64,000 nt of DNA. Source: Paraspadella gotoi (taxonomy: Eukaryota > Animalia > Chaetognatha). Positions 1,954 through 51,834 of this stretch are shown here, in pieces. The stretch's first letter is position 1. The number at the start of each line of letters is the position of its first letter. The position numbers were made by a program, and so were the translations under genes. The notes beneath the pieces are model-generated. The model was not told the origin of the DNA. It saw only the letters and a list, made by a program, of their open reading frames with translations, and made no database searches. The stretch lies in contig CM119271.1 in assembly GCA_051294375.1 (NCBI GenBank), positions 6,635,632 to 6,699,631 of the forward strand, given 5' to 3'.

Positions 1954-1995
1954 CTGAAAAGATGGGAAAATGTAAAGAGAGGAAAGACAAACGCA
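1954..1995 (-). promoter_or_regulatory. Unpaired 3' splice acceptor upstream of the VPS50 ATG (candidate trans-splice site)
   Basis: Minus strand reads gtctttcctctctttacattttcccatcttttcAG ~50 nt before the ATG. Confidence 0.55.
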
Positions 1996-2508
1996 ACACA
2001 AATCTAATTTTCGCACATTCAAAAAAAAAAATGAATAGCGATAGCGGGGAATATACCGAAACACTTAAGTTAAGGCACTTAATAAAATAAATGAGAAAAA
2101 TTGAAATTTTGAAAAAAGTTTACGAAGCATAAACAACATAAACAACAGATTAAAGCCATCTAAACTGGAAGAGCAATAAGTAATAAATTTTTCTGTAAAC
2201 TAAGTTAATTCTCTTTTACCGTAAAACACCACATTCACGACATTAGGTTAGTTTAAAAAAAATTCTTTTAGAAGACAAACAAAAAAAATTTAGTAAGTCA
2301 TTTTTTTAATAAAACCAGTATATAAAGATATATATTAAAGCGAAATAAAAGTTCAAAATTTATGTTCGACTCGCGAAGTCCAATAAATATAAATACCAAA
2401 GATAAATATATAAAAAAACTATAAATTCGTAAATTACTAAATCGAATCTATGTCGGCAGCTGAGGCCCAAGAAAAAACCGGAGATCGCACCGGCGCCTTT
2501 TTTCGTCG

Positions 2509-3090
2509 TCAAAGGCTCAAGACGTCGTAAGAGTTCCGTGGTTCGGCCTCGATCTCAATGACCTCGAGGTTTTTGGCCTTGGCGAAGGCGATCTCCTGCG
2601 TGCCCACTTTGCCCCTCGACCCGACGTTGACGACGGTGAGGGAGAAAGCGTCGTCTCGGATCCACTCGTCCGAGAGGTAGACGGCCGTCCCGCCGACGGG
2701 CCGCCCTTCCTTGGTCACGCCGCCCCACGTGAGGCTCGAATCCTCTTCGTAGGAAACCTTGGGATAGAGTAGGGCGACGTCGACGTGCGAGTCGATCTCC
2801 TGCCAGCACTGCACGGCCAGCAGCGGCATGCCGAACTTGTCCTTGAGTCGCTTCATAACGGCACCAAGGTCGGGCCGGTCCTCGATGCAGCTGTCTCCGC
2901 CAAAGGCCGCGAGCCAGGGTTTTCTAAAGGAGCGCACGATGGGATGGAGCGTCTCGCAGACCTTATTTAGCTCCTTGTACTGGAGCCGAGCGCCGTTTCC
3001 TATGAAAAGGTAGACGTCCTTGATGTTACGCTCGCGGAGGTAGGTCTTTAAGTCTGAGAAGGATCGCAGAATTAAGGGTTTGGCAGTCAT
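2509..3090 (-). CDS. Uncharacterised ~193 aa single-exon protein, predicted SLOG (SMF/DprA/LOG)-like Rossmannoid fold
   Basis: Intact GC-rich ORF (ATG 3090) with beta-strand/Gly motifs YLFIGNG, AAFGGD, WGG and C-terminal VVNVGSRGKVGTQEIAFAKAKNLEVIEI, resembling the SLOG G-G-x-G-T-x-x-E...A...V signature. Gene is well supported; fold call is tentative. Confidence 0.6.
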   Translation of the reverse strand: MTAKPLILRSFSDLKTYLRERNIKDVYLFIGNGARLQYKELNKVCETLHPIVRSFRKPWLAAFGGDSCIEDRPDLGAVMKRLKDKFGMPLLAVQCWQEIDSHVDVALLYPKVSYEEDSSLTWGGVTKEGRPVGGTAVYLSDEWIRDDAFSLTVVNVGSRGKVGTQEIAFAKAKNLEVIEIEAEPRNSYDVLSL

Positions 3091-3261
3091 GGCGGCAAGC
3101 AAGGAAGATGGCGAAGAGTGAAATGGTGAGTAACGGGCGACAATTAAGCTCGGGAAAAAAATTTTAAGTTTTCATTGCTGTTTTCAAAGGTTTCTAAATC
3201 CTTTCTAAACAAAACAACCAAAATTCTAAAATGGCATAAAATGGGCAGAAACGAGAGAGTA

Positions 3262-4430
3262 TCAAACTTTAAACGAAATGCCTTGCATCTGCAAGGCACC
3301 GCCGTCGACTGAATTATCCGGAAGTCTAGAAACTAAAGCCTTGGGTTTTTGACCATCCTTGACGTGAAGGTAGGCTACGCACATGCTGGAGGTGGTGTGT
3401 GCCCACGTCAGTTCACCCGCGCCATGTTCCTTCGAGGTAGTGAGCACTAAGGCCCCGGCCTGTCTGGCCCCTTCGCTCTTTAAAAATCTGGAATTGAGAA
3501 ATTTGTCGTTAAACGTCCGAGTGACGGCCAGCGTCAGGTTGTTGCTAGAGATCGCGGCGTCGCCCAGTTCCTTCGCGAGAAAAGTCTTGACGAGTTGTTC
3601 TCCTCTGCCGGTCGTGCTGACGGCGACGCCCGCATCTCCGTCCGCCACCGCCCAGCATCCGCAACCGAAGGCCGCCGCCTGACCCACTCGACCCGGCTGC
3701 TTCAGCAGAACCCCGCCGCTGGAAACGCCGGAGGCGACGTTGCCGGATGAGTCAACGGCGCAGGCGCCGACCGTATCTAGAGGCGTTTCGGCCTGCTGGC
3801 GAGCGAATGCATCGGCCGCTAGTCGGAGCATGTATTTTTCGTGGGCCGCCTTCGCCTGAACGCTGACTAAAGCATCTTCATCGACGGTGTTTTCTCCAAT
3901 TGCCCTGGCCCACCGACAGACGGCCCCTCCTGTCAACGTCATCGGCGGCTCGCGGTCCAAACTCATCTTCCCCTTCATCTGAGCCGTGAGCAGACGAGAT
4001 GCCACGCGGACCGGATTCTTAACGCCGGACGCCGCCGAGACGGAAGCGAAGCTCAAACTACGACCGTCCATCAAACCAGCGTCGCATTCCACTGGAGAAA
4101 ATTATGTTTGCTAGTTTTGTTAAAAATGTTCTACTACTCAGTACTTAACAATTATACATTTTTCTTTAAGTCCTCACAGTCATATTAAGAAGAGAAAAAT
4201 AAATTCATACCTTTTCCATCGATCGTCAAGTTTGAACCAAAGCCGGCGTTACATAAGGGATCGTCTTCTAAAACCGTCAAAGCTTCAACCACTGCCTCCA
4301 CTGCGCCGCCTCCTTCAGACAGGACATTACCCCCGCTCACACAGGCTAGCTTGCTAAGTTTCTTGTATTTTGGCTCTTTGTCACGACTGTGATAACCAGC
4401 GCCTAAATGAACGCAAACGAATGTCCCCAT
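3262..4430 (-). CDS. TASP1: Taspase-1 (threonine aspartase 1), 2 exons (4430-4211, 4091-3262)
   Basis: FVCVHLGAGYHS, EDDPLCNAGFGSNLT, VECDA, autocleavage/nucleophile site LD/TVGA, SSGGVLLKQPGRVGQAA; GT-AG intron 4092-4210 joins the frames. Confidence 0.95.
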
Positions 4431-5035
4431 CGCGAAACGGGTCTTCTTTTTTACCCGAACCTTTATTTTTTTTCCCTTTCAATCTACGACACTACAAACA
4501 TTCATTGAAAATCACAGTACAGCGAAAACATTTTTCCCCCTTTTAAGGGATGTAACAAGAGGCACGCACGAGTAAAAATCACGAATGGATATAAAAATAA
4601 TGTAAATCACTATATATGCTTTTAACATAGGCAAAAGGTTTGATTGATTGGAATACTGATAAGTATCTGACGCAAAAAAAAAAGCATCAAAAATACCAAA
4701 AAAGCAACAATTATTTTTTAAACTTTGCAATTATTAAACTAAAAAAAACTAACTATAAAAGACTAGTAAATACGATATACCAAAACAACTGCAAAATCGG
4801 TCCGACTATCTGCCGTAAATCAAGTTGTGTCAGTGTCGGGTTAAAACAAACCGTTTGTTTTTAACGATTTCTTTTAACCAGTAAAATGCAACTTTTACCG
4901 AGAATTAAAAGGGCTTTGCCGAGGTATGCTCAAGCTTGGATACACATCAAAAATAAATGAAGACATGGTAAAAGCTCGGTAACAAGGGGTGAAGGTCAAA
5001 AAAGTTAAAGCAACAAAATAAGAGGAAACTTGAGC

Positions 5036-8000
5036 TTAAGGTTGAATGAAGACGCTGGCTTCTGTCTGGCCTTCGGTGTCAGAGGCGATGGTTTCGGGCG
5101 ATGGTAAGTTGGAGAGTTTGTTTTCTTTAGTCTCCGCTCCTAAAATTAAAGTTTGTTATAATGATTTAGAAGTCAATTAACGAATGACCACGAACGCAAA
5201 TCTAAATTGTCGTACACAGCTTGCCTGATATTGCATCTAAATCCACAGGCCAAAACCGAATTCTGAGCAAGGTGTAAACCAAGTAAAGCGCGCCAGTGAT
5301 AAAGGCAAAAGCGCTTGAGCAATAAAATAAGAAATGATAATTGGTCTTGGTTACGATGACGCCACCCAACATGCTTCCGATCCCTTTGGCCACGCCGAAG
5401 TGAACGCCCTTAAAAAATTTCAAAATATTGCAACTAATCATGGCATAAACAAATGAGACGAGACGTCACCTGCAAAATTCCCTGCATGGTTGCGGTGGTG
5501 CCAGGAGGTGAAACTTTTCCCGCGTAAGTGGAAGCAGCGGGAAACATAAGTCCGAAGGTGATGCCATGCAACAGCTCGATGGGGATTTGCAGCCAATAAT
5601 TTTGGACGACGGTATAAAGAAAAAACCGCAGGGACCACGCGAACAGCGCGAGGCACAAACATCCTAAGAGAATATCATATATTAAGCAAAAGCAACGACC
5701 ACCCCTACTCGAAGGAATTCTGCCACTAACCCGAATGAGATAAGAAAGACATTATTCTGCCCGAAAGAAACATCATAGGTGTCTCTGCCAGAAGACAGGC
5801 GATCGTGATGGAAAGACCAATAGAAAGCTCTTTAGCTCCCAATTCCAAGATAAAATACAGGAAAACGAATGCTTCCAGGACACCTGAAAATATAAATGAA
5901 ACAAAATTTTAAGAAAATTATAAAGTCACTCGGATTTTTTTTTGGTTTTGTTTAGTAATTTAGTAAACAATTTATCATCAACTTGGCATGTTAGGGTCTC
6001 AGTTTTATCAAACTCAAAAAAAATGTATTATTGGTGAAAAAAAAGGAGGATTTAGCTCGCCGTCCCACTCTCCCCATGCTCTTCCTCTTTTTTTTATCCT
6101 CCTGCTCCTCGGTATTTTGGGAAGCGTTTCATTCACTCGTTCTTACTCTCCGCGAAATATACATTGTAAAGAGTAAAAAGAGTAAAAACGAATAAAAACG
6201 TTTCTCCCTCTATTTACTAGGGCCTTGAATAGTAGAGCGTAGTGAAAGTTACAAACAAAAATTCTAAATGTCAATTATGAACAACATACCATCAATTTGT
6301 AAAAATAATTAATTTTATATTCTTCAATTTTCGCAATAGGCTATATTTATATATCGTACTATCCTTATAAAATCGAAAAATTTTAAAATAGGCTTTTCTT
6401 AATTTTGATTGCAGATTTAAATTCCTCGTCATAGGTTGATAAAAGAAAATATAAATCATTTTCAAAAATTCTTTCATTAAGTGGGTTAAAAATTTAAAAA
6501 ACTATATTTAATATATAAAATTTTAATTTTCCGCTTAAAATATAGGTTTTTTTATATTTGATCAACTTAATGAAATAATTTTTTTATATATCTTTATATC
6601 AAATTTTCAAATCTTCAAAAAAAAAGACAAGAATCCGCCTTTATACTTTTTTACACTTGAAAAAACTTCTTTCTCGACCAGTTTTACCGGTAAGCATTCC
6701 CATGACGAACATGACGACGAAAAAGATACCGACGTCGACGTGACAAACGATAACATGGACGACGTCTCGAACCAAATTCTCGCTGGGCTTCGAGGGGCTC
6801 ACGTTACGCAAGAAAAGGGAAGCGACGATGCACAAAGTTATCCAAAAGAAATAAAAGTAAAAGTAAACGTAAAAGGAGGAAAAGTGTTTAACGACGCAAA
6901 AGTCGGATCGGTGAAGGAAATAGGCCACGAGTCCGACCACCGTAGCGGTTGTGCCGAAACCGATGGATCCCCACACCTGAAGAGAGTTCAAGGGTGATTG
7001 TTGAATTTATAAACCAACAACAAACAAAACTACTATATTTTCTATGGGCGAAAAAAAAAGCCCTAACTGACCCGCTGCAGTCCGTACATGACTTGATCCT
7101 TCTCCACGACTTCCAGAGTTATGGCATCGACGAGGGGCATGACCGTGGCCACGGCAAGCGTGACCACTAACTGCAACACGAAGAAGGCCAAAAATGGGGG
7201 CGTGAAGAACTCCGTCTCCGGCCCCGGCGCCACTTGGAGCGCGGGTAAGCACCGCTTCTCCGTCGCCGCGCAGATCAATTGACACTCGATCCTCGACTCC
7301 GTAGTCGTCGTCGTCGTCGAGGAGAACGAGCAGTTGGAAGAGAAGTCGAGGGAAAAGTCATGTTCGCAGACGAAGCCGATACCAACGCCGTCGTCGTCCG
7401 AGTCGCTTCGTCGCGCCGAAAAAGTAAATGGCGACGTGGTGACGTTGAGTCGGGAGCGAAGGCGACAGGACGAAGGAAATTCTTCGAGGACTGTGTCGTC
7501 TGGACAGATGAGAGAGTTCTAAGGAAAAGCGAGATTGAAACATTACAAGGTAGTCCAAGGGATACATTGTGTAAGGGATGATATACCCTCGTATACATGT
7601 GAAAAGAACGATAAATACTCACCTCTAGCCCGCCCCGATTGTGACTTTTGCACAAAGGAAATTGAGATTCTTTACTCAGACAGCTCGATTCTGGGTTTGA
7701 GCAGGAGAGCTCGACGCCGCAGGGCAGCCTTGAAACGAAGGGCTCACTGGGCACAGCCAAGTGAAGCGCGTGGCCCAGCCCGTAGACGACCGTAGATATG
7801 ATAGCGATGGAGCGGTAGCAATGATACTTGTCGGCGATGCCACCTCGGGGTGAATGGTAGAAAAGAAGTTATATATTTTTATGTCATCATCAATGGAAAA
7901 CTGGTAAAGCATTAACAGAGAATAAAAAAATCTTGATCTTGATCTCGCTAGTGACTGACGCGATAACGAATTATTGGTGTAATAGTAATTGATTGATGTA

Positions 8001-9044
8001 ATTGTAATTGATTGATTGATGTAATTGATTAATTGATGTAATAGTTATTGATTGATTAATGTAATAGTTATTGATTATTAATGTAATAGTAATTGATTGA
8101 TTGATTGATTGATCGCCGGATACTACGCCGGATACTACATAATAATAATTGATTGAATGATGTAATAGTAATTGATTGATTGATGTCATAATAATTGATT
8201 GATTGATGTAATAATAATTGATTATTGATACGATAGTAACCAAATACTGATGCGATGATAACCAAATATTGACGCAATGATAACCAAATATTGATGTGAT
8301 AATAACCAAATATTGATGCGATGATAACTAAATTATTGATGCGATGATAATCATTCATTGATGCGATAATCATTCATTGATGCGATGATAATCATTCATT
8401 CATTCTTTGACAATAACAATCTTCTATCAAACATGAGCCAGTCTCCAGAACAAGAAAAATACTTCCATTGTAAAGCTACAATACTACAATGAAATATTCG
8501 AATAAAATTGGAAAACTAAATCATTATTAAAAGCTATTAAAAGTACTGCTAAAACCGTAAAATAAGACTACTATGAAAACTGTATAAAGATATGTATCAG
8601 ATATGAGAAATGGTCTAAACTACTACAAAATGTAAATGAGATTGAAGAACTCAATCTCATTTGAAATGAACCACAAATTATTCTGCGACAATTGATGCGA
8701 TGATAATCATTCATTGATGCAATGATAATCATTCATTGATGCAATGATAATCATTTATTGATGCAATGATGTGAAAACACAGTAGGAGTTTGCCCCCAAA
8801 CTACTATGGTGTCTTAAGTTTGGAACACAGAATTCCCAAGCAGTTCTTTTCACTCACCAGTTATAGGTCTGCTGAGAAATCCCACAAAGGCCATGACGCC
8901 ATAGATGATGCCGATATGAGCATTCGTGAGACCCATTTTGGCCATGAACGAGGGAATTATGGGGAACACACAAGCGACGCTCCCGAAAAATAAGAAGTTG
9001 TACAACTTGAGAGGCAAAAGAGTTTTGTTTATTTGCGGCGGCAT
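5036..9044 (-). CDS. MFSD6: MFSD6-like major facilitator superfamily transporter, multi-exon
   Basis: INKTLLPLKLYNFLFFG start, VDAITL..YGLQR|VWGSIGFG, IELLHGITFGL, TATMQGILQ|GVHFGVAKGIGSMLGG; exons joined by GT-AG introns. The last intron is probably GC-AG (5140-5224). Confidence 0.85.
7958..8770. repeat. AT-rich minisatellite (ATTGATG../ATTGATGCGATGATAA(C/T)CA units) in MFSD6 intron 1
   Basis: Degenerate tandem units at 7958-8402 and 8692-8770. Confidence 0.85.
8595..8690. repeat. Short dispersed repeat, copy 1 (inverted copy at ~44642-44725)
   Basis: gatatgagaaatggtctaaactactacaa.atgtaaatgagattgaagaactca...ccacaaattatt matches the reverse complement of 44642-44725. Confidence 0.8.
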
Positions 9045-9423
9045 TTTGCAAATTCTCTTCATAATATAAAGTAACAAAAAAGTAGTGTTAAAAAAAAAAG
9101 AAGGGAAAATGAAAGAAGTCATCGAGAGATGAGAGCTACGACGTTCGGCTCAACTTTTTAGTAGGAAACCGAAACAACAGAAAGTGATATAAGTTAAATC
9201 ACGAGTTATTGTAATTACTCAATGAAATAGTCCCACTAAAAACTTTGACCTCCGGTAAGGAGTGATACCAAAAGCCATTTCATCAATGATTAAATATACA
9301 ATTGTACATACAAAAAATCTTATAAAAAAGACCTCACGCTAAACTGGTGAAATATAAACGTTAGTCTATTGATTTCGACAAAAACAGTAAATGAGCATAA
9401 ATGACGATTAAGAAATATTCCAA

Positions 9424-12400
9424 CTACCAAACTCCTCCTCCTCCGTAACCACCGTAGCCGCCGTGATAGTTGCCGTAATATCGACCGTCCATCGCTCCTT
9501 TATTCCAACCCGAATTCCCCGAGCCGGGCGCAGCGCCTCCGTAGGGTCCCGACGCGTTCCCGCTCGCTCCGGGTCCTTGCTGACTTTTCGAGGCGTCTTG
9601 CCGCCCTCGCTTCTTAGGATCTTCCTCGCCATCTTGCATCCAAGTTTTCATCATCGCCATGGCCTGACAAAACAAAAATTTCATTTTTGTATTGCTTTAA
9701 GAAAGTTGTAGAATGGTGCAATAAAATTTAATTAGTCTAATTTTATATCAAAAGATTGATTCAGTGTGCAAGCATCAGCGTTCAATTAATGATTAACGAA
9801 ACAACATCGTAAAGTAAAATATTCTTTTAGATTATTTGCCGATATTTTACTAATAAATTTAAATGGCATATTTTTTTAAAATCACTATATATAGTCTTGA
9901 CTGTTTCAATAATTATATGGAAGAATTATAAATAATTATAACAATAATTTGACCGAGCGAGCTCACAACCACAACAATTTTAACATTAATTTGACCTTAA
10001 GACTTGAGTAAAGTCACTCAACCGAAACCTCGCCTTCAAAAGCGCGTTCACAAAAATGCGGGTATAACAAATCTCGATAAAAGAATGACTAACGGTTACA
10101 GTGGCTTCAGCCTAAAAAACCAACATTTAAAAAGTCACACCTATATGTTAAAAAGACTCCCGGTCCCGTTTATGTTGGCTTCGAGAAGAGATTTGGCAGA
10201 AAGACTCGACAAAATCTCAAAAGAAAATCAACTTGAATTTTTTTTTATGTTCAAGATTGAAGCAACTCGTGACGGACACAAACAATGTTTCACTACGGGA
10301 AGACATTCATAACGCTGACGATCCTCAATAATTTTATCGCGGGAGCCTACGACATAAATCCAAAAAATGAACCCGATGTTTTAGTGAACGACGATGACGA
10401 TGAAGATTTATACCACCGAGGGCGTTTAAGTCCTCGCTACTTTTTTCGAATCGGTCGCGAGGATTTCGTCGACGCACATGCCATAGAAGGTCTCGCAACG
10501 GACGTGGAGCAGGTGACGTCGCTTCCAGTGGTTAACGAGCGCGTCCTTTTTCAATGCGGAAAAAAATTTAAGATCGGTGGGAAAAGGTGCGATCGAAACA
10601 CTTGGGTGCAGGGAACAGTCTTATCCACGAAAGGCAACGAAGTCGAGGCTTTGACTAGAAACTGCCAGTTGAGAGAACGATTCTGGAACGAAGACACAGA
10701 ATACAATGTCGTAAAGTTCAACATAAGAGAACTGAGACGCGCGGATTCTAATAACTTCCGGCGCGATGTCGTCTGCTCCCGAGTCAACGTCAACATTTTT
10801 TACAGACTCCATCCGAACTGCGGATTCTTCAAGTTCGCTACGGTGTTTCCCAGCCAATCGTTAATAAAAGTGGAGTACGTCGAGGACCACGGAAGGTCGC
10901 AGATGATCCGTATACTGAATCAAAGTGATCCGCCAAAGTTGGTCCCAGATATCGTGCCGAAAGTCAAGGATCTCGAGAACTTAACAGAGGTTATTGTGAA
11001 ACAGGAGAGCTGGTCAGGGGAAGAGTGGACGGTCGGACAGTTGACGGTGAGCGAAGATTCCTATTATGAAGTGGTCGTCGAAGGATTGCGACAAGTGGTA
11101 TCGGTGGATGACAGAGAATACCTTCGAATTTTGCGGGGAAGAGTCATGACTTTCTGCGAAAATGATGAGAAGGAAATCGACGAAAATGACGTAAAAACTA
11201 CAACCTGGACTGAGTTGGACGAGGTTACGGAATCGCCGCTCTCACAAAAGCAAAATATGACTTGGATTATCGTCGTCGTCGTCGCAATCGTTATGTTTAT
11301 TTTCGCCGTCTTGATCACCGTCTGTTGTAAATTTATCGTTGAAAGGTGAGAACAAAATTTGTTTTGACGTGATTTTCATGCGATTCAGGTGAAAAACTTT
11401 TAAATGTTAAACAAATATATAGGAGGACTTCAACATCAAGAGTACAATCCGACCATTACGAAGAAATGAATCTGCCAGAATTGAGGGCCAAATCAAAAGA
11501 GGCAGAAGCCAAGAACGAGAACACGTATGAAAGTATCGAGTCGACATACGAAAATCCAAACATTGAAGCTAATATCTATAGCGAAGTCTCTTCCGAATCT
11601 GGCCAATATGAGGTACGAATTTTTCTAAGATTTTATACCAAAATATTACGAGTCTCAAGAACTTATTTCAGTTTTGTTAACGATGTTTTTAGCAATATAG
11701 AAGAGATAGGTCTATTCATTCCGTAGCGGTTCAGCAAGAGTACGCCGAGGAAGGAAACCTACCGAAAACTGACGAATATTATGGTAAGATAAAATCGAAA
11801 CCTGTACGTCCATTTTGAAATTACATATGGGTTGACTTAGTTTATTTTTTCTTCGCAGTTTACGACACGGACACAACAAATTACAAATGGAATGAAAAAT
11901 GACAAATGAAAAATGAAAAATTTGTTGTTTTTTTTTGGGGGGGGGCCGTTTATGAATAATTTTATATCGGGTAATTGTAAGAGATATAATAATATAATAT
12001 AATATAATTTTAGAGAATGCCCGATTATTAGTTATCTTAGTAAAAAAAATGTTTGTGTATTGTATTTAAAAATTTTAGGATAGCTGGCTGGAAATGAATT
12101 TAATAAGTGGCTAAATTAAATTAATAGTTTATTTATTATGATTTTGTTTTTATTTATGATTTATTTACTGCGGATTGTTTTATTTCGTCAATTTACGAAT
12201 ATAGCATTGTTTAACATCAAGCAATTTATGTACTTCTTTAATTCAAGCCAAAGAAAAATATAATTTATAATTTTATTGTATTGCATATGCAGTAAAGTTT
12301 CATAAAAAGAGTAGCGTATAAGAAGGCTACAGACTATATAAAAACAATAACTAAAATACCTAAAATTAATATACAAATTAAATAATTTTATTTGTGAACT

Positions 12401-15053: not shown

Positions 15054-15371
15054 GGTTTTTTTTTTAGCTTTAATTTACTTTTCTGTATATAATTATGAAA
15101 AATTAACGATTAAAATCAACGAAAGAATGTTTTTTCAAAATAATAAAAGAATAAAACATTTGCCGAAATGAGCGAATATCGATCGAGGGAAAAAATGAAA
15201 TTATGTAACTTTAAAAAAAAAAGGCTGCAACATAATGTGAATAACGTAAAGGACATGGCACTTCTGAGGTCATGAAAATAAAAACAGTACGTCGTTTGGA
15301 TCTTCGCCCAGTTACTTTCTTGTCTCTATTTTTTTTTCTCTTTCAAGCAAAGTTTTTATTTTTTTTTTAAA

Positions 15372-18278: not shown

Positions 18279-19182
18279 CGTCCAGAAATCACCGGGGAAT
18301 ATCGTTAAGAAATTAGATTTGTTTAAATTATAAAGACAGCTGACGGGAATGAAAGAGGGTTGAGAAACATATAATTACGCCGTAGAATTTTTAATAAATT
18401 ACAACTGGAATATAGTATATAGAATTTTATCACGAAGTGGGACAATTTGGTATTGAATGCCTTAGAAAAGACACTGCTATCTGCTTTGATTTAACATATA
18501 AATCTAAATTTCGTAAAACGACTCATAAGTCTGATTCGTGATAGAATATTTCACAGAAAAATAAAATTTATTACTAAAAATTAAATTTAACTTAAAACAA
18601 GGACGGTATAATAAGTTTTGAAAACACCGAGTTTTAATAAATACAGTTTTCCTATTAGCTATTAGCTATTTTTCTTATTCAACATTCTATTTTTCTAAAA
18701 CTTGAACAATCAACATTTAATTAGGACCCTTTAAAGGTTTTAACTAGTGTTTTACTACCCGCTTTTTGGAGAAATAACTTGAGAGCATAATTCAAGTCCC
18801 GACAGCAAAAGTGATCAATGTATACAACTACGTACGTAACTATTTATGGCGTACTATTAGATCCGATTAAGATTTGCCCGAAACGGAAAAAATAAAACTC
18901 TCGTGCTGTTCTGAATACTAAGTACGAAATAAATTTATCACCCTTGATCACAATCCAGCTAAGCGGCCACCAAAATGGTAAACGAAATTGTAAAACAAGC
19001 AGAACGTAAATGGAATTGAAGATCTTTCGATTAGTGAAACGAAAGTCCACGGGTACTAAACAGCGCTAAAGCTCCGGAACAATAAAAAGAGCGTCGAAGG
19101 TGTGAGACCTGACCAGAAGTTTCACGCATAAGAAAATAGATCATCGTAATCTCAATTTTAGCAGTGGGGAGTTAGAAAAACT

Positions 19183-32688: not shown

Positions 32689-32914
32689 CGCATTTTCCGT
32701 TCTTAATAATCTGGAAGTCGGGGGAACGCAAATTTTTTACAACATGCAAAATTTCCATATTTTCCTTGGCTTGCACAACATCATAATAGTCAATAAATAC
32801 TTAGTAATTATTCAACCCATTGAACTTGAGAGATCTTTTTAAAATTCGATAATAAGTTTAATAACAAAAAAAAAAAAAAATGTAATAAAACCACAAAATT
32901 CCTAATGAATGGAG

Positions 32915-33107: not shown

Positions 33108-33294
33108 TAGAGTATTGCGACAAGGTTTCAGAACAAAAGTTCTCATAATAGAAATGAAAAATAACAAAATAAAAAGCTAATAAATTATCTAGAAAAGATA
33201 AAAACTAAATAACAATAACAAAAAGTGAATTGATTTTAATTGAAAAAAAAAAAAAAATCTTAATTCGGAAAGAATGAATCATACAGAAACGAAA

Positions 33295-34083: not shown

Positions 34084-34628
34084 TTGTTTTCTTTCTGTTC
34101 TCAAAACGACTGAAATAAATAACATCGCGTGTCAAGAATGGGTTAACATTCAAAGAGTTTTCTCACAAACTTTCGGTTTACTTAAGCAATATATCCTTTG
34201 CCCTATTCTGGTTTAACATAAATGAATAAAACTATAAAAGAAGAGGATAATTAAAATCTAGAGAGAAACTATAGCTATACCATGAGATCAATTATTTCGA
34301 AAAAGAAGGAAAATATTGAAACGTGTCCAAAAGTTGGTTCCTTCGTTCGAAACAGCGGAACGCATTTTTGAGTTATTATATGTCGGAATGACTATTTTTA
34401 ATAATAGGAATCAAAATATATTGGATATTAGGAAAAACTAAAAAAAAATTTGCACAAGATCATCTTTTCCAGTTAAGCATTCTGGATCCGGGCTCGCGAG
34501 TAAACATATTTCCGAGTCTACGAAAAAAAAGTTGAACTGGATTCGCTCATGGGGATTCGGGTTTCGGTTGATAAGGGATGAAAAATGGGGAAAAGAAAGA
34601 GAAGTTGATACGAAGAAGGTGGAAAATG

Positions 34629-40600: not shown

Positions 40601-41113
40601 ATACTTGTAACACTATTTTTAACCCAATTATTCCGCTCTCCCTGATTCCACAAGAGTTTGTTCCTGACATCCCAACACAGGAAACTCGTCCTCAGATTTC
40701 CAAAATATTCGTGCACTTACTAATATCGGGATACTGACTTCCACAGACAAAGCGTTATAAAAATTTTCTTAAGAATATATTTTTTTTCTTAAGAATATTC
40801 GCAATTAAGATTATTGGTTTATACGGTGATCATGTCCTACCGACAGAATTCATCGGAACTAATATAATCACTGAATATTAATCAGTCAACACCGTTCTGT
40901 TAAGTCAATCTGTTGAAATTGATAGCGGATTACCTCGTTCCCGCCAGTTTCGCTGGGCGCATTCTGGGACGAATCCTCCCCGAAACTCTCTTCTAGGAGG
41001 AGCGAATTTCCTAAGCCGGATGCGCTTCCCTCGGATGCGTCGGAGGTCGACTGGGTCGCTTGGACGTAAGTTAAGCCGTTTACATCCGGGACCGACTCGG
41101 CCGGATTCGCCAT
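34629..41113 (-). CDS. CASD1: CAS1 domain-containing sialate O-acetyltransferase, multi-exon
   Basis: [79 protein letters not shown]. Likely first exon 41113-40935 splices in frame to an acceptor at ~40537; this start is inferred. Confidence 0.9.
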
Positions 41114-42838
41114 GAAGGGAAGTCACAACATCCGCCGAGTCTGCATAGTTCTTCGATCCTTAGCGTTTTTCGTTCAAATTCGATGTCATGTAAAACCGAT
41201 TGGGCCGTTTGATTGAGCGTGAAGAAAGAATGTTTCACAACGACTGAGTTTCCCAAAATGATGCACAATGAATATATTATATTATTATATATTTATTTGG
41301 TATAACCTTTCTTTCGACGACCGGGGTTAGGGGAGGTGTCAGGGTAATTAGGTAATAATTTTTTTTTAAATAAGTATTTAATTGTTTTTTCAAAAGACGC
41401 CAAAACCCAGATAGGCGAAAGTAAAGTTTTACCAAATATTTCATGTTTAATTCTCTAATGACTTAGAAACGGTGAAATGATTTCGTGACTTGAGCTGTAA
41501 CTTATACAAGGAGCCTCATATCATTCTTTCCTAACCCACTTAAATCTTACGATTCACTATTTCTTCTTCTCCCCCTCAGACAACATTTTATGGATATATT
41601 TATATTGTATATAAAGAAGTTCCTTATCACTTAGGCGGGTCACAAAGAGTTAGTCTAGCTTTAATCTTAAAAACTTATCACTTTTGTACATCAATATGTG
41701 CGACGACTTACCTCACAGAGTTTACAAATTCATTTTGAAATTGGAGATGATTTAAGTATTGTCCATATATCGCAGTCTCATTCTACACTGTTAGAAAAGT
41801 GTTGGGCAATAAATCAAAAGCAAATCTGGAAAGGTGTTTTCTTTTTATATTTTTCTCATAAATGACAAATTTCTTTACACGTTCCGGACATAACGTTTCC
41901 AAACAAGATGCTGCAAAAATCCCGATGCATTTATCACAAATTATTTAGGGGGTTTAAAAAAAAATACTAAATTGTGATAACTATTCTATAGGACATCAAC
42001 CAATTAAGTACTTTTGATATTTTAGGGGAAGTTACAATTTCCACAGCCCAACTAACAACTAAAGAATATTTCTTTTATTTCCACGACCGATGTCCGGGAA
42101 AAAAATGTGCAAAAGTGTCGACAGAGCAGAAAAAATGTAAAAACAAGATGAAACGAGGATAAACTCCAATAATCGATATGACTAGCAAGGAATACCCTAA
42201 GCAACCACAGGTAAATATCATGACCTAAAAAAAACCTTAATTCCATCCGCGTCCAAGAAACTGATATCACATAATACAGATGTAAGTTTGGAAACCTTTT
42301 CTCATAACCTTTGGAAATGACAAATTTATTTACTCCAAATTAACCCAAGAATTCAATTTATAAAGTATGTTTTACTTTTTAATTTACATGCGTTAAATCA
42401 AAATAAAATCAATAAAAAAATTTTATTACCCCTATTTTACCAAAAAATTTTAATTGATTAATTTTCTAAAATCTATTCTAATTTTTTTAGTCAAAAGGAA
42501 GTAAACAAAATTTAAGATCAATCATTCCCAAAAGTTAACGTGGTAAAATTAAAACATACAATTTTTCATGATCATTATGACCAATCGACCATCAAAAACC
42601 CCTCTCATATGGAATGATTAATTGTGTAATTTTTGTTCAAGAATTTTTTCATTGTCCACGCGTCAAAATCGTTTATAATCATCCCTCATAAAGTGAAAAA
42701 TTTTATACGTCCGTTAATACGGAAAACGTCGATTCATTAAAAATCGGAAGAAAAAAAACAGGAAAAAAAAAAACAAAAAAACGCGAGCGACAATGTCATC
42801 TAAAATGATCCCGTGAGCCCAATTTTAAAAGGACCTCT

Positions 42839-45800
42839 TCAAGCTATGGCCTTGGCCTCAGGGAGGAAAAGCTCCCAGTGTTTAACGAGTTTCTGTTCGC
42901 TGTCCATCAGGATTTCCAGGTACGACAAAATTGTGGCCTTGAAATCGCGAATGCGCGTCGCCTCGAACCGCTCCATCTCTGACCGGATGGTCTTAGAGCA
43001 AGCCTCAAATTCCTTCTGCCCAAGCTCCATTTTTCGCTCAAGCTGCAAAGAATAAAGATTTAGGTCAATTGGGCCAAGAAACGGCCTCTCCTTCCAATCT
43101 CAAATAAACGCGAGACCCACCTCCTTAATCTCTTCCTCGGTTAAGCGCAGTTTGTCGGACTTTCCCTGTTGTTGAAATTTAGTCGCGGCCTCCCTTCTCT
43201 TCGCCAGGGTGGCGCTGGTATTTCGCCAGTTGGTGTAAATCTTTACGCGTTGATTAAACACGTCCTGTATAAAGGAAAGTCGAAGACGCTGCTCAACTGC
43301 TCATTTTTGTCTTTGAACCGGAACATGGGAGATCTTGAGCTGTGCTACACAGTTAAACTCATAGATACTTCAATTATATAAAAAACATTGCGGAGTACAA
43401 TAAGTATTCCCCGATCTAATACTTAAGGGAGTGGTCTTTTCATACAATTGAAACATTCTTTGAAATATTTTCCACTTCATTGATAGGGAAGCCAGGTACT
43501 CTGGGAGTGAATAAACGAGACTGTGAGAGTGTCTTGATTGAAAGCTTGCAGGGACCTGCTATGTCATTATCTTGTAAGAGTGATGGAGGCCTTAAACCAC
43601 CAAAGCCGGTCCAAAGTCAGGGGCAAGATAGCTTATTTATTAAATGAATGGATAATTTTTATATTGGTTGTACTAATTTCATTCTCATAAAAACAGTGAA
43701 ATTTGTATAAACTTTTCCCAATCCGACTCCTCACTTTGACGGCGGAAAGAAGAGCCACGTAATCGCGAATTGTCTCGGACAACTGAAAGAAGTCGCCGTT
43801 GGATTGCTCGAGGTGAACTTGCTCCACTTTTTCTTCAACCTCCGCCAAATGAGACAAGGCACGAGAAAGACCTGGCGAGAATCAAATCGAGCTATAGAAT
43901 ATTCGACCTGAGAGCTTCGTCACGCAATCAGGCGCAACCTGTGTGTTCCTCAGCGTTGGAGAGCAGGGCGCAGGATTTAGCGAACTGCGCCGTATTCCCG
44001 ACGAGTTCGCGTCGCTGCACCACCAGCGATTCCAGGGAGGTGTGAAGCTTCCTCAACTGGTGGTCTGTGAGAAGTATTTAAAAAATTATTAAACTAAAAA
44101 GAAATAATAAACTATCGTTAAGATGTAACTGAAAAAAAAAATAATCACCTAAATTCTCAATCATCATCCCCTTCTCTTCGAACCAAGCGTCGGCTTCGTC
44201 CACTCTATAGGCAATCTTGTTCACTTTGTCCTCCAGATTTGAGAAAAACTTGCCAATAGAGGCACCGCTATAAAGTTTAAGACAAAATCAGGTAACGATG
44301 ATTGCAAAAAATATCATAACTCTCGTTTTCTCTCTCTCTGATAACCTGAAGGTCGAAGTCTGTGTGGCGCGAGGCAAATCCCCGTCGGTTTCGAGGAAGT
44401 CCCTAAAATCGGGATCCATTCGTAAAACAGGATGCGCCGCCGTGCGGTTGAGGAAGCGTTCCAAGGCGGCGCGACGACGCTCGATGAACTCCTGGTGTCA
44501 ACCGAAAAAGAAATGAGACGAAGGATCCAGACGAAGTTAATTCGCGATTTTAAGAAAAAACTGGACAATTTCCAATGCGCAATAAGTTTTTGTTAGTCTC
44601 AGTCACACGCACCCGGAGTTAAATTGTTCAAATTTATTATTTTTGTAGCAAAATAATTTGTGGTGAGTTCTTCAATCTCATTTACATATTGTAGTAGTTT
44701 AGACCATTTCTCATATCTCATATCAGCACCATAATTTTATAAGGATAAAAACCATTTAATAATAGTATTGAATAATAGTATTGAGCATTAGTATTGAGCA
44801 AACTCTCAAAACTGAATTCCAAAATATCAACCTGGGGCTTTCGAACAGTCCAAAAATCCTGTATTATCATTTATAAAACGAATATTATAAAAGGTGGAGG
44901 TTCCCTTTCCAGTTTCCATGCATGGCAAGTGGTATCCCAATAAATTCGTATAGATACTACTTCGTAATTTGAATAAAAAATAAATTGTGAACAATTACAT
45001 TACACACGAAAAAAAAAACGATGTTCTTCCTTACCTGAGAGGTTTGGTCTTCTTTCGACAATTTGATGCCGATGGCACCCATAGCGCTCTTTTCGGGTGC
45101 CGGTGGAACGATACGTCCGGCCACCATGTGTTTTGCGACTAGTTTTTGATGCAGTCCGAGGAAATCGGAGAAACGCCGACTAACGTTGTAGTTGGATTTG
45201 CGAAATGCTGGAAGGTTCGTTTTGGTCGTGACCTAAAAACAAAATAAAATAAATAAATTTCGAAATGACAATAAATACGTGGGGACCATTCCAAAGGTAG
45301 TCTCGGCCGAGGCTGGGCTGGGCTGGGCTTACCTTGTAAGAAACGTATGCTCCCATTCCTTCTCCAACTTTGGCCGGGTCGTGGACGCGGATTTCGAGGA
45401 AAAACTCGTCTCCTCCGTCAGCCTCCGATTCATCCTTGGTCATCTGTTGTGGTTCATTCTTGAATTTCTGGTAGACGCATCATCAAAGAAAATCGAAAAC
45501 AAATGAATCCAAAAGTATTAAACGTTTGTCGAGGACCAATAAAACAATTTTCCTCCATGCATGATTAGCACTCTCGTCCTCCTAATTTCTAAATTTCTAC
45601 CATATTTCTATAAAAACTCTTGACAATACTTACGCCGATAGGAGCGGCCACCGGAATTGGTTTGGCCACTGGTTTCGCGAGAGGAGCCGTCTTCCCAGTG
45701 ACGGGCAACTGGGAATCGAGATCGCCGGCTCCAGCACTCATTGGGGACGGCGTCTCGTCGGTGCTATTAGTTTGATCCAAACTTAAAACCGGAGCCTGAC

Positions 45801-48693
45801 GTAACAAAAAAAAAGTTTAGAATTCGACAGACTTATTTTTTAAACGGATGACGGAGAGAATTATTATCTAATCTACTTCGCGCTGAATTAAACATAGTTA
45901 GTTGACTAATACCGAAATTGCCGATACGTTTTTCGCAGCCAATTCATTGCCTGCTAATCTATATGCATTTCTTTATTTTACAGATCGAGTTCGGAAGAAA
46001 ACTTAAAACAGGGTGAATAAAATTCATAAGAAAAATATTATTATCTTTTTAAAACATTTGAAAATCGTAAAAACAATTTTGCACTTAAACTTTACATACA
46101 CTGCGGCGCATAAAAAAGTTCATACTTTCCTGCCTGGAATAGGCCAATGTATTTGGTTGAACTGTGAACCTCTTTTGAAGAGCTATCAATTAGTGCACAA
46201 AAAATTAAATCGGTTGAGACCGTAAAATATGGCAAAACATTAAAATCAAAACTTTAAAATGAAATTGGGAAATGTAAATTTCTCTAGTTAAAACGTCCAT
46301 CATTTTTTCTTTTCTGACATTCGCTATTGATATAGAATTAACATAATGATAATAGAATATATATTTCCCCAGTATGTATCCCTATCAGAACATACGATTC
46401 TACATGGTAGTCATATCCCTATTGGTAAAAAAAATCATATATAACTTTGGTCCCCCCTCAAAAAATTATCCATTCCCACCCCTTTCTGTTCAGCCTGTGA
46501 GATATTATGATTTTTCATAAATAACTTTCTAACAGGAATGATGAGTGATATCTATTAGAAAACTAGGACAGATTGTAATCTAACCTTGGGTTGTATAGAT
46601 ACTCCCTCTATTTCCAGAAGAACACTGACTTCCCCTTCCCAAAATGAGTTATTAGCTGTAATGATAAGTAAAAAAATTTTAAGAAAGCAATAAATTTATA
46701 TTTAAAGAATATAAATTAAATAATAAATCCTTCATAAAATATAAAAATAGAAAATAGTGAAACAAGTATTTTTATACTTAACATATAAACAAAAATATAA
46801 ATCTTATAATTAAAGTTAATTTAAAAGAGTTTAGAAAAGTTATTTCTTCCAAAATAAAACGTCCTCTAAAAAAATGAAGAGAAAAAAAGCTTTAAAAGTT
46901 GTCTGTGGTAAGCTAACTTTAAACAACTGTTTTTTTCACTTTTTAAACATAATTCTTTCGGGTAGTTTTTATACTTATTTTAGTTATTTTAATATTTTTT
47001 TATTTCGAACCATCGGGATAACTCCCCTTAAAATTTTTCGATTAACTGACTTAATGAGTTACAACTTTTGAATTTCTCGCCCGATTTTGATGAAATTTGC
47101 ACCAATCGCTTTGGCTTTCAAAAAGCTTTATATCTTTTGAAAGTTAAGCCATCCAATATGTTTTTTCTGCGCCGCAGTGTATTTTACCCCGAAATCGATC
47201 CGGTGAGAAAGTGATACGGATAATATAAAGCAAATTATTAGCGAAAGTAACGAAAAATATCAATTAAAAATTTTAAAATATTGAAGCGGGATGTGTTGTA
47301 AAGACTTTCTGTACATAAAACAAAACATAAAACAATACACCATGACAGATGGACATTGGACATTACTTGGAGTTTAATAACATACGTGGTAGTGGTAGGT
47401 TCGGGAGGGCTGATTGTGAAAAGTTTCGATACATATAATAAAAAGGGTTTATTTTTTAGATCAAAGAAGAATTAGAAGAAAAAATAAAAAATACAAAAAC
47501 AGACAAATTAGATTGTTCATAGTAAACGACTAAAAAAAAAAAACAAAAAAAAACAGAAATACAATTTGCAATAAATGTAAAAAACTATGGGATCTTTATT
47601 AAACAAAACTTTAAAATATTTTCGTAGAATATACGTAAAATAACGTTTACAAAAACTCGATTCTGAGTAATACTTCAGCAAAAAACATTGCATAAATTTC
47701 CTACGATCTTCATTCGAATGAGTATACATATTACATAGTATATAAATTTCCACCTCCACTCCGTCAAGTTAAAAGTAATACTAATAGTATACTATTAGTA
47801 TATATATATAATATATATATATATTATATATGACAAAGATTTCCCCCAGACCCCAGGATACATATTAGCCCTACCTGATTGTTGGGCAGCCTGGAAGGGG
47901 GAAACAAGTCGTCGTCGTCGTCGTCGTCGTCAAAAAAGGCGCCGCCAGAGGAAGGAGGCGGCGCCGTAAACTCGGAGGACGCATTGTGGCCGTTGACGAT
48001 CGGCGATATCGAGGACGGCGGAGCGACAACTTGATTAAATAAACAATATCAGGTTATAAAAGGAAGTTAAATTAAAATTATGATTATAATTACATTTATA
48101 AAATTTTTTCAAAATTTCTAATTGCCAAAAATATATTTTACACTTCATATGAACTTACACTTAATACACAATAAACTTACTATATCGTTCAGTTTATTAT
48201 TAGGTTTGTAGAGATTTATAAACATTGGTATGATTTTAAATTTAATTATTTTAGGAGTGTAGATCGTATTTGAGTTTAATTGTTCTTTGTTAAAATGGTA
48301 GTTTTTTAATTGTTTAAGACATCTTATTTTAATACTCATTACAAACTAAACCCTAAAAATTAAGATAAGCGTAGAACAAAAAAATAAAATAAGTATTCCA
48401 GTGAATTTCTGCCCGTCCCTCTTTCGAAGCCAACCTTTATCTGGCAAGGCAGCACTTGGTTCTGAGCTGAGCGAAACGGGTTCGAAATCTGGCCCGTCAT
48501 CGAGCGGCACGGGTTTGAGGTCGCTGACGGGGCTTTCGAGGTCTTCAGTAGGCGGATCGTCAGAGAGGATGAGTTGGTCCTCCGGTGGTGCGGATGGCGA
48601 TGGCGAAGTTGGGGTCATCGTGGGCGTGGCTCCGGTCTCCCCATTTCCTTCATCGCTGGCATCCAACGGCGGCGGTTCCGTCACGGTGGCCAT
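42839..48693 (-). CDS. Sorting nexin 1/2 (PX-BAR), multi-exon
   Basis: [51 protein letters not shown], and C-terminal [19 protein letters not shown] typical of SNX1/SNX2. Confidence 0.93.
43502..43682. repeat. ~180-bp dispersed repeat, copy 2 (in SNX intron)
   Basis: Near-identical to 32915-33107. Confidence 0.9.
44642..44725. repeat. Short dispersed repeat, inverted copy of 8595-8690 (in SNX intron)
   Basis: Reverse complement matches 8595-8690. Confidence 0.8.
46099..47179. mobile_element. Non-autonomous Tc1/mariner-type DNA transposon (MITE), ~1.08 kb, in SNX intron
   Basis: TIRs CACTGCGGCGCAtAAAAAA (46099) and TTTTTTcTGCGCCGCAGTG (ends 47179), each flanked by TA (46097-98, 47180-81); no transposase ORF. 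Confidence 0.85.
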
Positions 48694-49451
48694 TTTCTCG
48701 CAACTTCCTTTTCCGCTTAACTTGATCCCTTTCTAAGATAACGATTTCGTTCACCTAAACGCTGGTAATATAAACGTGAAAAATACTTGAGACGTAGTAA
48801 AGCCTACGCGAAATTCAATATTTTCTTTCTTGTTATAAAATTCCAACAAAAAACTAACATCTTTCCTGATAACAATTTTTCTAATACTACTGAAAAAATT
48901 AACAGCGGTATGGCTACATTCGCAGTGCCGCTTATACCGAGTTGTAGTTTGATTAATTTTCAAAGAAAAGAATGATACATTATCCGTTAGGACCAGCGCC
49001 AGTTGATCACAGAAAAGCTCAAAGAGGAAACTCCATAATATTCTCCCATATTTACTAAATTTATCAAATTCAAAATCAAGTTGAGCACTTAATGTTTATA
49101 ACTTTAAAATGGCATCGCCTGAGACGTCTTACTCTTCAATGTAAACTTTTTTACGTATATCACTTGCTCGTAGTGGTCCATAAATGACGAGCAGAAAAGG
49201 CAGAATCGCAGTTACTTACGTTAAACAATAACTTGAGTAATTTCAATTGAAAAAAGAGAAATTTTCAATTATAAAACACATTATATCACGTGCTGTGTCA
49301 ATAAAAATTCTCTACATGTAAATAAATCTCAAAAACGACAATTTAAAAAAAAAAAAATTTGAGGCGGAAAATAAACTTCGTTAGTGACCAACCACAGTTT
49401 ACTATAAGAAACACTGGCCGAAAAGACTCAAACGAAAATAGCGGTCGAGTT

Positions 49452-50885
49452 TTATTTATTGACTTTGCGTCTTTGGTTAGTCAGCGAATTAACGTATCCG
49501 CGATGAAGGACGTCGACGAACCCCTCGTCGGTCTTGAGCAGAAAGAGAAGCGTCGACTTGAGTTGCTCCTTGGTCAAGGATTCGGGATCCATCTCGGCGC
49601 CGCTCGAAGAGGGTTCGTTCGGATCTTCGCTCGGACAAAAGAAAACGACGGGTCGAGCCTTCCCAGCCTTTCGCCCACTTTCGACTGTCTCAAACGCATC
49701 CGGCGTCAACAGCGAAACGCCGCCTCCGACGATTCCTCCAGCTTCGGGAGACGACGGCGGAGATCCCTCGTTAACGTTGACGATGAGTGAAACGTCTCCG
49801 CAGGAAAAATGAGAGGGAACGGCGGGAAGCGCTTGAGAAGGCGGCGGACTGTACGAAGGCACAGAATTACGAGAAGGAAGATTGGATGGGGATATCTCAT
49901 TCTTATTGTTGCCATAAGATGGCGAGATCGGCGTCAATGGTCCGGGGACGTTCTCCGGGGATAGTCCGTCCTCGGATATCATGGATAGAGAGTTGGGGTA
50001 ATTGAGATCATTCTTCAGCGATCCGCTCGATACCTGAGTAGACAAGAGCGGGCCGACGTTACGATCAAGCGATTGGATGCCGCGGATCTTCATCTTGCGG
50101 ACGAAAGACTGAAGTACGTCTTTGGTCTCGTCCGATTTTTCGACGGAATCGCAAGTTTCTTTGGGCTCGTCAATCTTAACGGGCAGCACGGAGACAGCGC
50201 GGACGTGAGAATCGAGCTTCGGTTCGTCCTGTTTTTGGTTCCTCGCGTTGGCGAAGAGCGACGAGACGCTGATACTGAGGCCCGTGGAGACTTCATATTG
50301 AGGATGTTCCTTGTCGTACTCTCGCTGCGCCTTCGACAACAGGGCCATGATATCGTTATTCTCCCCATGGCTAGATAGAGGATCTTTGAGGATTTCTTTC
50401 ATAACGCCGTGCTTGTCGCCTGAAGAGTCGACTTGGCAAGCCTCGAGCGGGGCGCCGCTCGATTCCTCAACGGGTTCTTTCTGAACCATTTTCGTGAGTC
50501 GGACGACGAGGTCGCCGATTCGGCGACATTCTTTTTTTTCGAAGAACCACAGACCGTAGATGTCATCTCGGTTTTTGTAGAGAAGGAAGGGATCCTGCTG
50601 CTGGAACTCCACGTGGCCGTTGATCGTTTCCCAGTGGTTCTTGGGCATTTTGCGATTGGAAATGGTAAAGCCATAGAGAGGCGCCGCCGATCTCTCATAA
50701 ACAAAGAGAGTACCTTCTATTTCTGACTTGGCCCAGGCGTCTTCCGGCTCGTTGAAGATATACAGAGCCACTTGGGACGCGGTGTCAAGGATTCGGCGGA
50801 TGTAAGGATCCCGTCGCTTGAGCGCCGTCAAGTTCATTCGTTCTTCTGGAGTTAAGTTTAGTTTGGCGTTGTTTATGATGTTCAT
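49452..50885 (-). CDS. DCP1: mRNA decapping enzyme subunit DCP1, intronless
   Basis: EVH1 domain MNLTALKRRDPYIRRILDTASQVALY..W.KSEIEGTLFVYER, FLLYKN, IYGLWF; C-terminal trimerisation helix LTKEQLKSTLLFLLKTDEGFVDVLHRGY; ATG at 50885. Confidence 0.95.
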   Translation of the reverse strand: MNIINNAKLNLTPEERMNLTALKRRDPYIRRILDTASQVALYIFNEPEDAWAKSEIEGTLFVYERSAAPLYGFTISNRKMPKNHWETINGHVEFQQQDPFLLYKNRDDIYGLWFFEKKECRRIGDLVVRLTKMVQKEPVEESSGAPLEACQVDSSGDKHGVMKEILKDPLSSHGENNDIMALLSKAQREYDKEHPQYEVSTGLSISVSSLFANARNQKQDEPKLDSHVRAVSVLPVKIDEPKETCDSVEKSDETKDVLQSFVRKMKIRGIQSLDRNVGPLLSTQVSSGSLKNDLNYPNSLSMISEDGLSPENVPGPLTPISPSYGNNKNEISPSNLPSRNSVPSYSPPPSQALPAVPSHFSCGDVSLIVNVNEGSPPSSPEAGGIVGGGVSLLTPDAFETVESGRKAGKARPVVFFCPSEDPNEPSSSGAEMDPESLTKEQLKSTLLFLLKTDEGFVDVLHRGYVNSLTNQRRKVNK

Positions 50886-51834
50886 CTTTTTTATGTAATG
50901 TATTATCACCGCTGAGGCATAAAACATCAAAATAATTACATATTGTATTGTCACGATTCAAATTTACTAACGGCATGGTAACTGGTAAGATATACGGTAA
51001 ACGAGTCTCGAAAAAAATCTAAAGAGTCTACATGGGCCTAAACACTAAGAATGGGCCAAATTTATGGCATCTGGTAGTTGGACTATCACGAACAGCGTCG
51101 ACCATTGCACTCGGTCATACGGGCATGCATTCGAAAATAGATTCAGGATACCAGTCTTACCTATAAATATGATCAATGTGATAAAAATCAAGCTCTGAGC
51201 TACATGTGGTTAAGGAATATCCGAGCATAACGTTGAAGCCACTCAATGGGCAAAACTCAACTAGAGCCGTAGAGTAATAAAGAAAACTATACGCGTGACT
51301 ATTTCGAACACAATAAAACCACTATTTATACAAATATCGACGAAGATTCCTCCAAATTATAATTATACTCAAACTATGGCTTTAGCCATTTTTAACGTTT
51401 TGCATGATTGACCAAAATAAGGTTTATTTACAAAAAGTATTAAAATAAAAAAAGCAGAACCCCCCCCCCCCCCCAAAAAAAAAAAACACCTGGCAGGAAA
51501 ATTAGCAAATTCTAAAAGCGTGAGCTATGACACCAAATTGAGTTGAAATAAACGAAGTCAAATAAAAAATTCAAAGCTTTCATGACGTGAGGTTTCGTAT
51601 CACAAGATAAATAAAACTATCTAAATATATTTTACACAGTTCAAACCTAAGATGAGCACACATATTTAAAATCATAACAGAGGCACCACTTTTTTTTTCA
51701 TTTAATTTAAATACCGTCATACCTTAGAAAAGCACACAAATAAGGGTTTGAATTGTACACATAATACGTTGCAGACCAGCTTAAACAACGTAAAAAGATA
51801 GTTTTTAAAACTTTCTCTGGGGAGCCAATATTAA

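What the first reader, a model, noticed from the sequence alone, without database searches (positions are those of the whole stretch)
1954..50913. Recurring unpaired polypyrimidine tract + AG just upstream of start codons (trans-splice acceptor signature)
Seen on the minus strand, AG positions: VPS50 1954-55 (catcttttcAG), TDP-43 15083-84 (ttcataattatatacAG), TELO2 18340-41 (ctctttcattcccgtcAG), AVL9 22143-44 (tttctctttattttcgaaAG), THYN1 23364-65, MED19 24203-04 (attatattcAG), STYX 29041-42, PARL 30213-14 (cattttttcAG), acid phosphatase 32711-12 (cccgacttccAG), SNX 48762-63, DCP1 50912-13 (ttttatgcctcAG). Each lies ~20-70 nt before the ATG, is often followed by an A-rich leader, and resembles the cis-intron acceptors of these genes. 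Inference: outron/intercistronic SL acceptor sites. Caveats: AG after T-rich DNA is common in AT-rich spacers, and some could end 5'UTR introns (e.g. a possible GTATGA donor at ~23406).
Basis: partly seen in the sequence, partly recalled or inferred. Interest (0 to 1): 0.75.

Follow-up and report, generated by a model that had tools for sequence, protein, structure and literature searches.

The report
Arrow-worm operon trans-splice acceptor sites
These are likely the spots where an animal that is likely an arrow worm splices a short shared leader RNA onto the front of each gene in a tightly packed row of housekeeping genes, a process already described in that group.

Summary
Confirmed, and a known kind of system. 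Ten of 11 AGs sit where stated; THYN1's is at 23354-55. The window holds 19 tandem minus-strand genes. A spliced 7175-nt RNA contig covers ACP, PARL, STYX and AKAP10. It starts exactly after the ACP AG with 9 unaligned letters and stops on the G of the MED19 AG. The leader's letters were not shown. Orthologues supply the link: one MED19 relative begins with the translation of chaetognath leader SL2, one PARL relative with SL3 at 9 of 10 residues. So the animal is likely a chaetognath, in which SL trans-splicing and operons are published (PMC2481426, PMC12460157). Against: the contig reads through the PARL and STYX AGs, six of the 11 sites had no RNA test, and AKAP10 has a true cis 5'-UTR intron. 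Open lead: upstream RNAs may end at the next acceptor, as in Ciona, and the operon may exceed the published nine-gene maximum.

The parts
32711..32712 (-). Acid phosphatase acceptor AG; best-supported trans-splice site
   Evidence: record 2 aligns to 32710 and leaves 9 letters unaligned; top-scoring AG
30213..30214 (-). PARL acceptor AG (rival AGs at 30201 and 30269)
   Evidence: Orthologue P0279 starts with an SL3-like peptide; record 2 reads through; scores
29041..29042 (-). STYX candidate AG; exact site unsure (29069, 29095, 29038 score higher)
   Evidence: 62 nt after the PARL stop, no GT available for a cis intron; record 2 reads through
24203..24204 (-). MED19 acceptor AG; the upstream AKAP10 contig stops on its G
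   Evidence: record 2 aligned to 24203 plus 3 unaligned letters; orthologue P0005 starts with the SL2 peptide
23354..23355 (-). THYN1 acceptor AG (corrected from 23364-65)
   Evidence: Only AG within 100 nt of the ATG; 99 nt after the MED19 stop; contig end 23354-56 inferred table 3
22143..22144 (-). AVL9 candidate acceptor AG
   Evidence: Top AG; 153 nt after the THYN1 stop copy; no RNA test
18340..18341 (-). TELO2 candidate acceptor AG
   Evidence: Score 7.6, only AG within 100 nt; a donor-like GT lies at 19113; no RNA test
15083..15084 (-). TDP-43 candidate acceptor AG
   Evidence: Top AG within 100 nt, score 1.0; no RNA test
1954..1955 (-). VPS50 candidate acceptor AG
   Evidence: Score 6.8; no RNA test
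48762..48763 (-). Sorting nexin candidate acceptor AG
   Evidence: Top within 100 nt but weak (0.8); a stronger AG lies at 48890; no RNA test
50912..50913 (-). DCP1 candidate acceptor AG
   Evidence: Weak (-0.6), near-tie with 50982; no RNA test
34232..34233 (-). Added candidate acceptor of the folate-receptor-like gene, 148 nt before its ATG
   Evidence: Best AG within 320 nt; the CASD1 contig (record 3) ends at 34229, 3 nt past it
24203..32710 (-). Four-gene stretch ACP-PARL-STYX-AKAP10 covered by one spliced contig, 7 introns out, spacers in
   Evidence: record 2; exon sum 7163 equals aligned length 7163
19183..32712 (-). Likely operon core of 7 genes: ACP, PARL, STYX, AKAP10, MED19, THYN1, AVL9 (inferred)
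   Evidence: Record 2 plus stop-to-AG distances of 211, 62, 251, 99 and 153 nt
26619..27435 (-). Cis intron in the AKAP10 5' UTR; shows that some AGs before an ATG are cis acceptors
   Evidence: Record 2 piece ends at 27436 and the length bookkeeping needs this intron
1..64000 (-). Run of 19 tandem, co-oriented genes from LRP-like to VPS50
   Evidence: 18 of 19 have a Pfam match

Best explanation
[quoted passage not shown] Shown: the AGs resemble this genome's cis acceptors; an RNA contig starts exactly after one of them with non-genomic letters; orthologues of two genes carry chaetognath leaders. Inferred: one long precursor is made; the spliceosome joins the donor of a roughly 36-nt SL exon from a separate SL RNA to each AG, giving capped single-gene mRNAs with 20-70-nt UTRs after the leader. 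The T-rich sequence before each AG would be the end of the upstream gene's 3' UTR or, at a first gene, an outron. Weakly inferred: the upstream mRNA would end at or within a few bases of the acceptor, as in Ciona operons.
For:: record 2 aligns 24203-32710, 7 introns removed (exon sum exact), with 9 letters left at the ACP AG. The alignment does not take in the AG, which fits chaetognath leaders ending in AAA; forms SL2/SL4 and SL3.1 share exactly their last 9 nt (Table 3 of PMC2481426), a circumstantial fit. P0005 (MED19, 85% identical) starts with the 8-residue translation of SL2.0: 1 of 20 close-kin sequences, about 6e-6 by chance. P0279 (PARL, 58% identical) matches SL3.2 at 9 of 10 residues: 1 of 33 kin sequences, about 3e-6; 7 leader peptides were tried in all. 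The window's MED19 and PARL fall in clades with these at support 100. STYX and THYN1 spacers hold no GT for an intron of 56 nt or more. First base after the AG is G in 1 of 11 sites against 24 of 48 cis introns (p=0.017) and 2 of 16 SL-bearing contigs. 19 genes are co-oriented (2^-18 if independent).
Against: The 9 letters were not displayed (424 loose ends hidden). X1 is only guessed to be RNA by its record, though its joints are canonical. It is one run. TELO2, DCP1 and SNX spacers hold donor-like GTs (4.0-6.3; cis median 5.6). Six other genes lack a good AG within 100 nt. No named chaetognath sequence was in any tree; the taxon rests on the leader peptides.
Confidence: 0.8

Rival explanations
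1. The sites are SL acceptors, but each gene has its own promoter and outron; there is no polycistronic precursor.
For: Several stop-to-AG distances are long (553-921 nt). About half of chaetognath genes are trans-spliced but only 18% are in operons (PMC12460157). No read-through is seen upstream of ACP.
Against: Spacers of 62, 99 and 153 nt leave little room for a 3' UTR plus a promoter. One spliced contig spans four genes and stops on the next gene's AG.
Confidence: 0.1
2. The AGs end ordinary cis introns in 5' UTRs.
For: True for AKAP10 (26619-27435). Donor-like GTs lie upstream of TELO2, DCP1 and SNX.
Against: No usable GT before STYX or THYN1; only weak ones (2.7 or less) before ACP, PARL, MED19, AVL9, TDP-43 and VPS50. 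Record 2 makes no cis joint at PARL or STYX. Orthologues carry leaders.
Confidence: 0.06
3. Chance AGs in T-rich spacers, picked after the fact.
For: 26 of 68 spacer windows reach the lower quartile of cis scores; rank tests are borderline. STYX, SNX and DCP1 sites are weak.
Against: Shuffle test p=0.006 with the omitted genes included. Contig ends fall on or within 3 nt of the ACP, MED19 and THYN1 AGs.
Confidence: 0.04

Closest known systems
Chaetognath SL trans-splicing and operons (Spadella cephaloptera and Flaccisagitta enflata, PMC2481426, sections 12-13 read; Paraspadella gotoi, PMC12460157, passages read)
   Same: Same leader family in orthologues (SL2, SL3), housekeeping genes, close head-to-tail packing. 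In Spadella the RPS14 poly(A) site lies 3 nt from the PCNA acceptor.
   Different: This gene cluster is not named in the passages read; the Nature paper's spreadsheet supplement was too large to read and may list it. The longest published operon has 9 genes under a 250-bp rule; the run here is 19 genes. Species not determined.
Ciona intestinalis operons without intercistronic DNA (PMC1488885, section 14 and passages read)
   Same: There poly(A) is added to the G of the acceptor AG and most upstream genes lack AATAAA. Here record 2 stops on that G with 3 other letters, and no AATAAA lies in the last 100 nt before any of the 11 AGs (0.75 expected, so not significant).
   Different: Different phylum and leader; Ciona operons are mostly two genes; the 3 letters here are unseen.
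Caenorhabditis SL2 operons and the minor SL1-type class (as described in PMC1488885 passages)
   Same: Polycistronic RNA resolved by trans-splicing.
   Different: About 100-nt intercistronic regions and a dedicated SL2; chaetognaths have no operon-specific leader.

Membership tests
SL trans-splicing acceptor | AG with pyrimidine tract like cis acceptors, upstream of the start codon | tested here: met
   9 of 11 top-ranked; p=0.006 over 17 genes
SL trans-splicing acceptor | No paired upstream donor | tested here: inconclusive
   none for STYX and THYN1, weak for 6 sites, donor-like GTs for TELO2, DCP1, SNX
SL trans-splicing acceptor | mRNA 5' end breaks from the genome at the AG | tested here: met
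   exact at ACP (9 letters left); within 3 nt at THYN1 (inferred); not seen at PARL or STYX; MED19's 5' contig not shown; 6 sites outside the laid stretch
SL trans-splicing acceptor | One shared leader on several mRNAs of this species | tested here: inconclusive
   Letters hidden; leaders found only in orthologues P0005 and P0279
SL trans-splicing acceptor | SL RNA gene elsewhere in the genome | not testable with these tools
   No genome held; no leader pattern in the window; candidate SL2 genes found in unrelated contigs L005, L013, L018
SL trans-splicing acceptor | Hypermethylated cap on mature mRNA (recalled feature) | not testable with these tools
   Needs cap analysis
Chaetognath operon (definition of PMC12460157) | Co-oriented genes less than 250 bp apart | tested here: met
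   stop-to-AG 62, 99, 153 and 211 nt; 251 nt at MED19, where RNA runs up to the AG
Chaetognath operon (definition of PMC12460157) | At least one member with an annotated leader | tested here: inconclusive
   Shown for orthologues of MED19 and PARL, not for this species' own mRNA
Chaetognath operon (definition of PMC12460157) | Single polycistronic precursor | tested here: inconclusive
   One four-gene spliced contig; a contig is not a molecule
Chaetognatha (taxon) | Phylum-specific leader on close orthologues | tested here: met
   trees; leaders unlike those of other phyla per PMC2481426
Ciona-type operon without intercistronic DNA | Upstream poly(A) site on the G of the acceptor AG | tested here: inconclusive
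   record 2 ends on the G at 24203 plus 3 unseen letters; record 3 ends 3 nt past the AG at 34232-33

The most novel reading that the evidence does not exclude
[quoted passage not shown] The long spacers are then just 3' UTRs, and this block is one operon of 13 to 19 genes, longer than the published maximum of nine.
Probability: 0.35. Interest if true: 0.5.

Novelty: already known. Interest (0 to 1): 0.25.

Why it matters
What remains useful is a base-level list of acceptors and a testable hint on operon mechanics. If upstream RNAs end at the next acceptor, a distance rule would undercount operon size, and chaetognaths would be a second phylum that resolves operons the Ciona way.

Tried and rejected
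No whole genome is held, so no SL RNA gene search in this species. One search listed no holder on record as RNA; X1 is a guess. RNA was laid only on 22470-39300; X2 and X3 gave 8 and 9 short pieces and nothing on 5' ends. A metagenome scan with the MED19 alignment found no relative among 446 pattern matches. The 19 loci with the SL2 pattern match no window gene by tblastn or blastn. No Rfam family in the window or in L005, L013, L018. SL1 and SL4 peptides gave no good match in 292 proteins. AATAAA is not depleted: 5 seen, 4.0 expected in 11 spacers. The USP9X tree puts the query next to lophotrochozoans with few taxa and cannot name the phylum; a first IQ-TREE run timed out. Cluster listings gave no organism names. 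A THYN1 search of protein representatives was queued but never returned. Part 1 of 2 of the Spadella list of trans-spliced genes showed none of the window's genes. Earlier scan notes: none. Nematode origin was considered and dropped: proteins are slow-evolving and the leaders are chaetognath forms. The GTATGA donor at THYN1 was rejected (52-nt intron).

Full report
Observation. They lie 20-68 nt before the start codons. The window is animal DNA with 19 tandem minus-strand genes, 18 with a Pfam match.

Chance. I built an acceptor matrix from 48 cis introns: 18 backed by RNA and 30 predicted from reading frames. Eight of 17 reach the cis median, against 7 of 68 spacer and 16 of 113 intron windows. 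Rank tests are borderline (p=0.02-0.07), and the six skipped genes score poorly. The pattern is real but modest, and sequence alone would not settle it.

RNA. One run, X1, holds 0.78 of the sampled words. Its record only guesses RNA, but its contigs skip canonical introns. Record 2 (7175 nt) aligns from 24203 to 32710; my exon model sums to 7163 letters, exactly the aligned length. It covers ACP, PARL, STYX and AKAP10 with seven introns out and the spacers in. Its 5' end stops at the first base after the ACP AG with 9 letters unaligned. Its 3' end stops on the G of the MED19 AG with 3 letters unaligned. Distances in table 3 put the end of the THYN1 contig at 23354-56 (my arithmetic). The CASD1 contig ends at 34229, 3 nt past a good AG that lies 148 nt before the next ATG. 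The letters of these ends were not among the rows shown. That fits an unresolved precursor, as reported for Ciona, but also overlapping UTRs or DNA carry-over. AKAP10 has a real cis intron in its 5' UTR.

Organism and leader. MED19's nearest kin are unnamed proteins at 81-88% identity. One of 20 such sequences, P0005, begins with the exact 8-residue translation of the 3' 24 nt of chaetognath leader SL2.0 (Table 3 of PMC2481426; chance about 6e-6). One of 33 PARL kin, P0279, has 9 of 10 residues of leader SL3.2 just before its normal start (about 3e-6); the two residues before it may be a library adapter (recalled, untested). The window's MED19 and PARL group with these sequences at support 100. 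The species was not determined. A scan for SL2 found 19 loci: 16 with the leader before an open frame (15 at a contig end) and 3 with five copies followed by a GT donor, likely SL RNA genes. These come from other samples and do not match the window.

Mechanism. Shown: acceptor-like AGs, one exact RNA break at ACP, leaders on two orthologues, tight packing. Inferred: a long precursor is cut into capped mRNAs by joining an SL exon to each AG. No cis partner is possible at STYX or THYN1; TELO2, DCP1 and SNX have donor-like GTs and stay open. The 7-gene core from ACP to AVL9 is the best operon candidate. Contig ends on or next to the following acceptor in two cases suggest that upstream mRNAs end there. 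This is a hint from one run.

Known systems. PMC2481426 (sections 12 and 13, passages, and part 1 of 2 of supplement 3 read) reports the leaders in two species and one operon with 3 nt between poly(A) site and acceptor. PMC12460157 (passages read; three PDF supplements searched; spreadsheet too large) reports trans-splicing of 10,197 of 21,072 genes, 18% in operons and a nine-gene maximum; its main text has no match for 'intercistronic', 'polyadenyl', 'acceptor' or 'SL RNA'. PMC1488885 (section 14 and passages read) shows poly(A) on the G of the acceptor in Ciona. PMC7986045 (passages read) gave the SL RNA criteria. Searches for chaetognath with 'intercistronic' and with 'SL RNA' and 'Sm binding' listed only general papers; the unread spreadsheet and papers outside the library may cover this.

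Verdict. The system is already known for this phylum, so interest is low (0.25). The best remaining question is whether these operons lack intercistronic DNA and are longer than published (probability 0.35, interest 0.5).

Noticed in passing
L005:214-335 and 909-1030; L013:12-133 and about 1444-1600; L018:795-916: Likely chaetognath SL RNA genes: SL2 leader, GT donor, three hairpins and a possible Sm-like site; L005 has two copies 695 bp apart. No Rfam match; no two-sided covariation in 4 close copies.
   Followed up: partly
window 10285-11726 (+): Plus-strand gene nested in TDP-43 intron 5: likely membrane protein with a tyrosine-rich tail, no Pfam match. It has its own T-tract and AG at 10254-55, 29 nt before the ATG (score -0.3).
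   Followed up: partly
window 30424-30637 (-), donor at 31574: Likely alternative last exon of the acid phosphatase, encoding a second membrane anchor and tail that resemble the first. Not spliced in record 2.
   Followed up: partly
window 22298-22697: The 3' end of THYN1 is repeated on both sides of a 10-N gap; likely an assembly artefact.
   Followed up: yes
window about 12690 (-): One-base frameshift in the TDP-43 second RRM exon; likely an assembly error.
   Followed up: partly
window 5224 and 39847 (-): Two predicted GC-AG introns among 48.
   Followed up: no
window 2509-3090 (-): 193-aa intronless ORF with no Pfam match; atlas hits (0.82-0.88, leads only) include SLOG/DprA-type clusters.
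   Followed up: partly
window 51835-60066 (-): USP9X is one 8.2-kb exon; TELO2, AVL9, MED19, PARL and DCP1 are also intronless, while CASD1, SNX and the MFS gene are intron-rich.
   Followed up: no
window about 7960-8770, 26770-27050 and 33000-33120: AT-rich repeats with very high depth in X1 at the latter two places; the 33000 element resembles a stretch near 43550-43690 in an SNX intron (seen by eye).
   Followed up: no
window leaders of AVL9, STYX and ACP: Short upstream ATGs lie between the AG and the main start codon.
   Followed up: no
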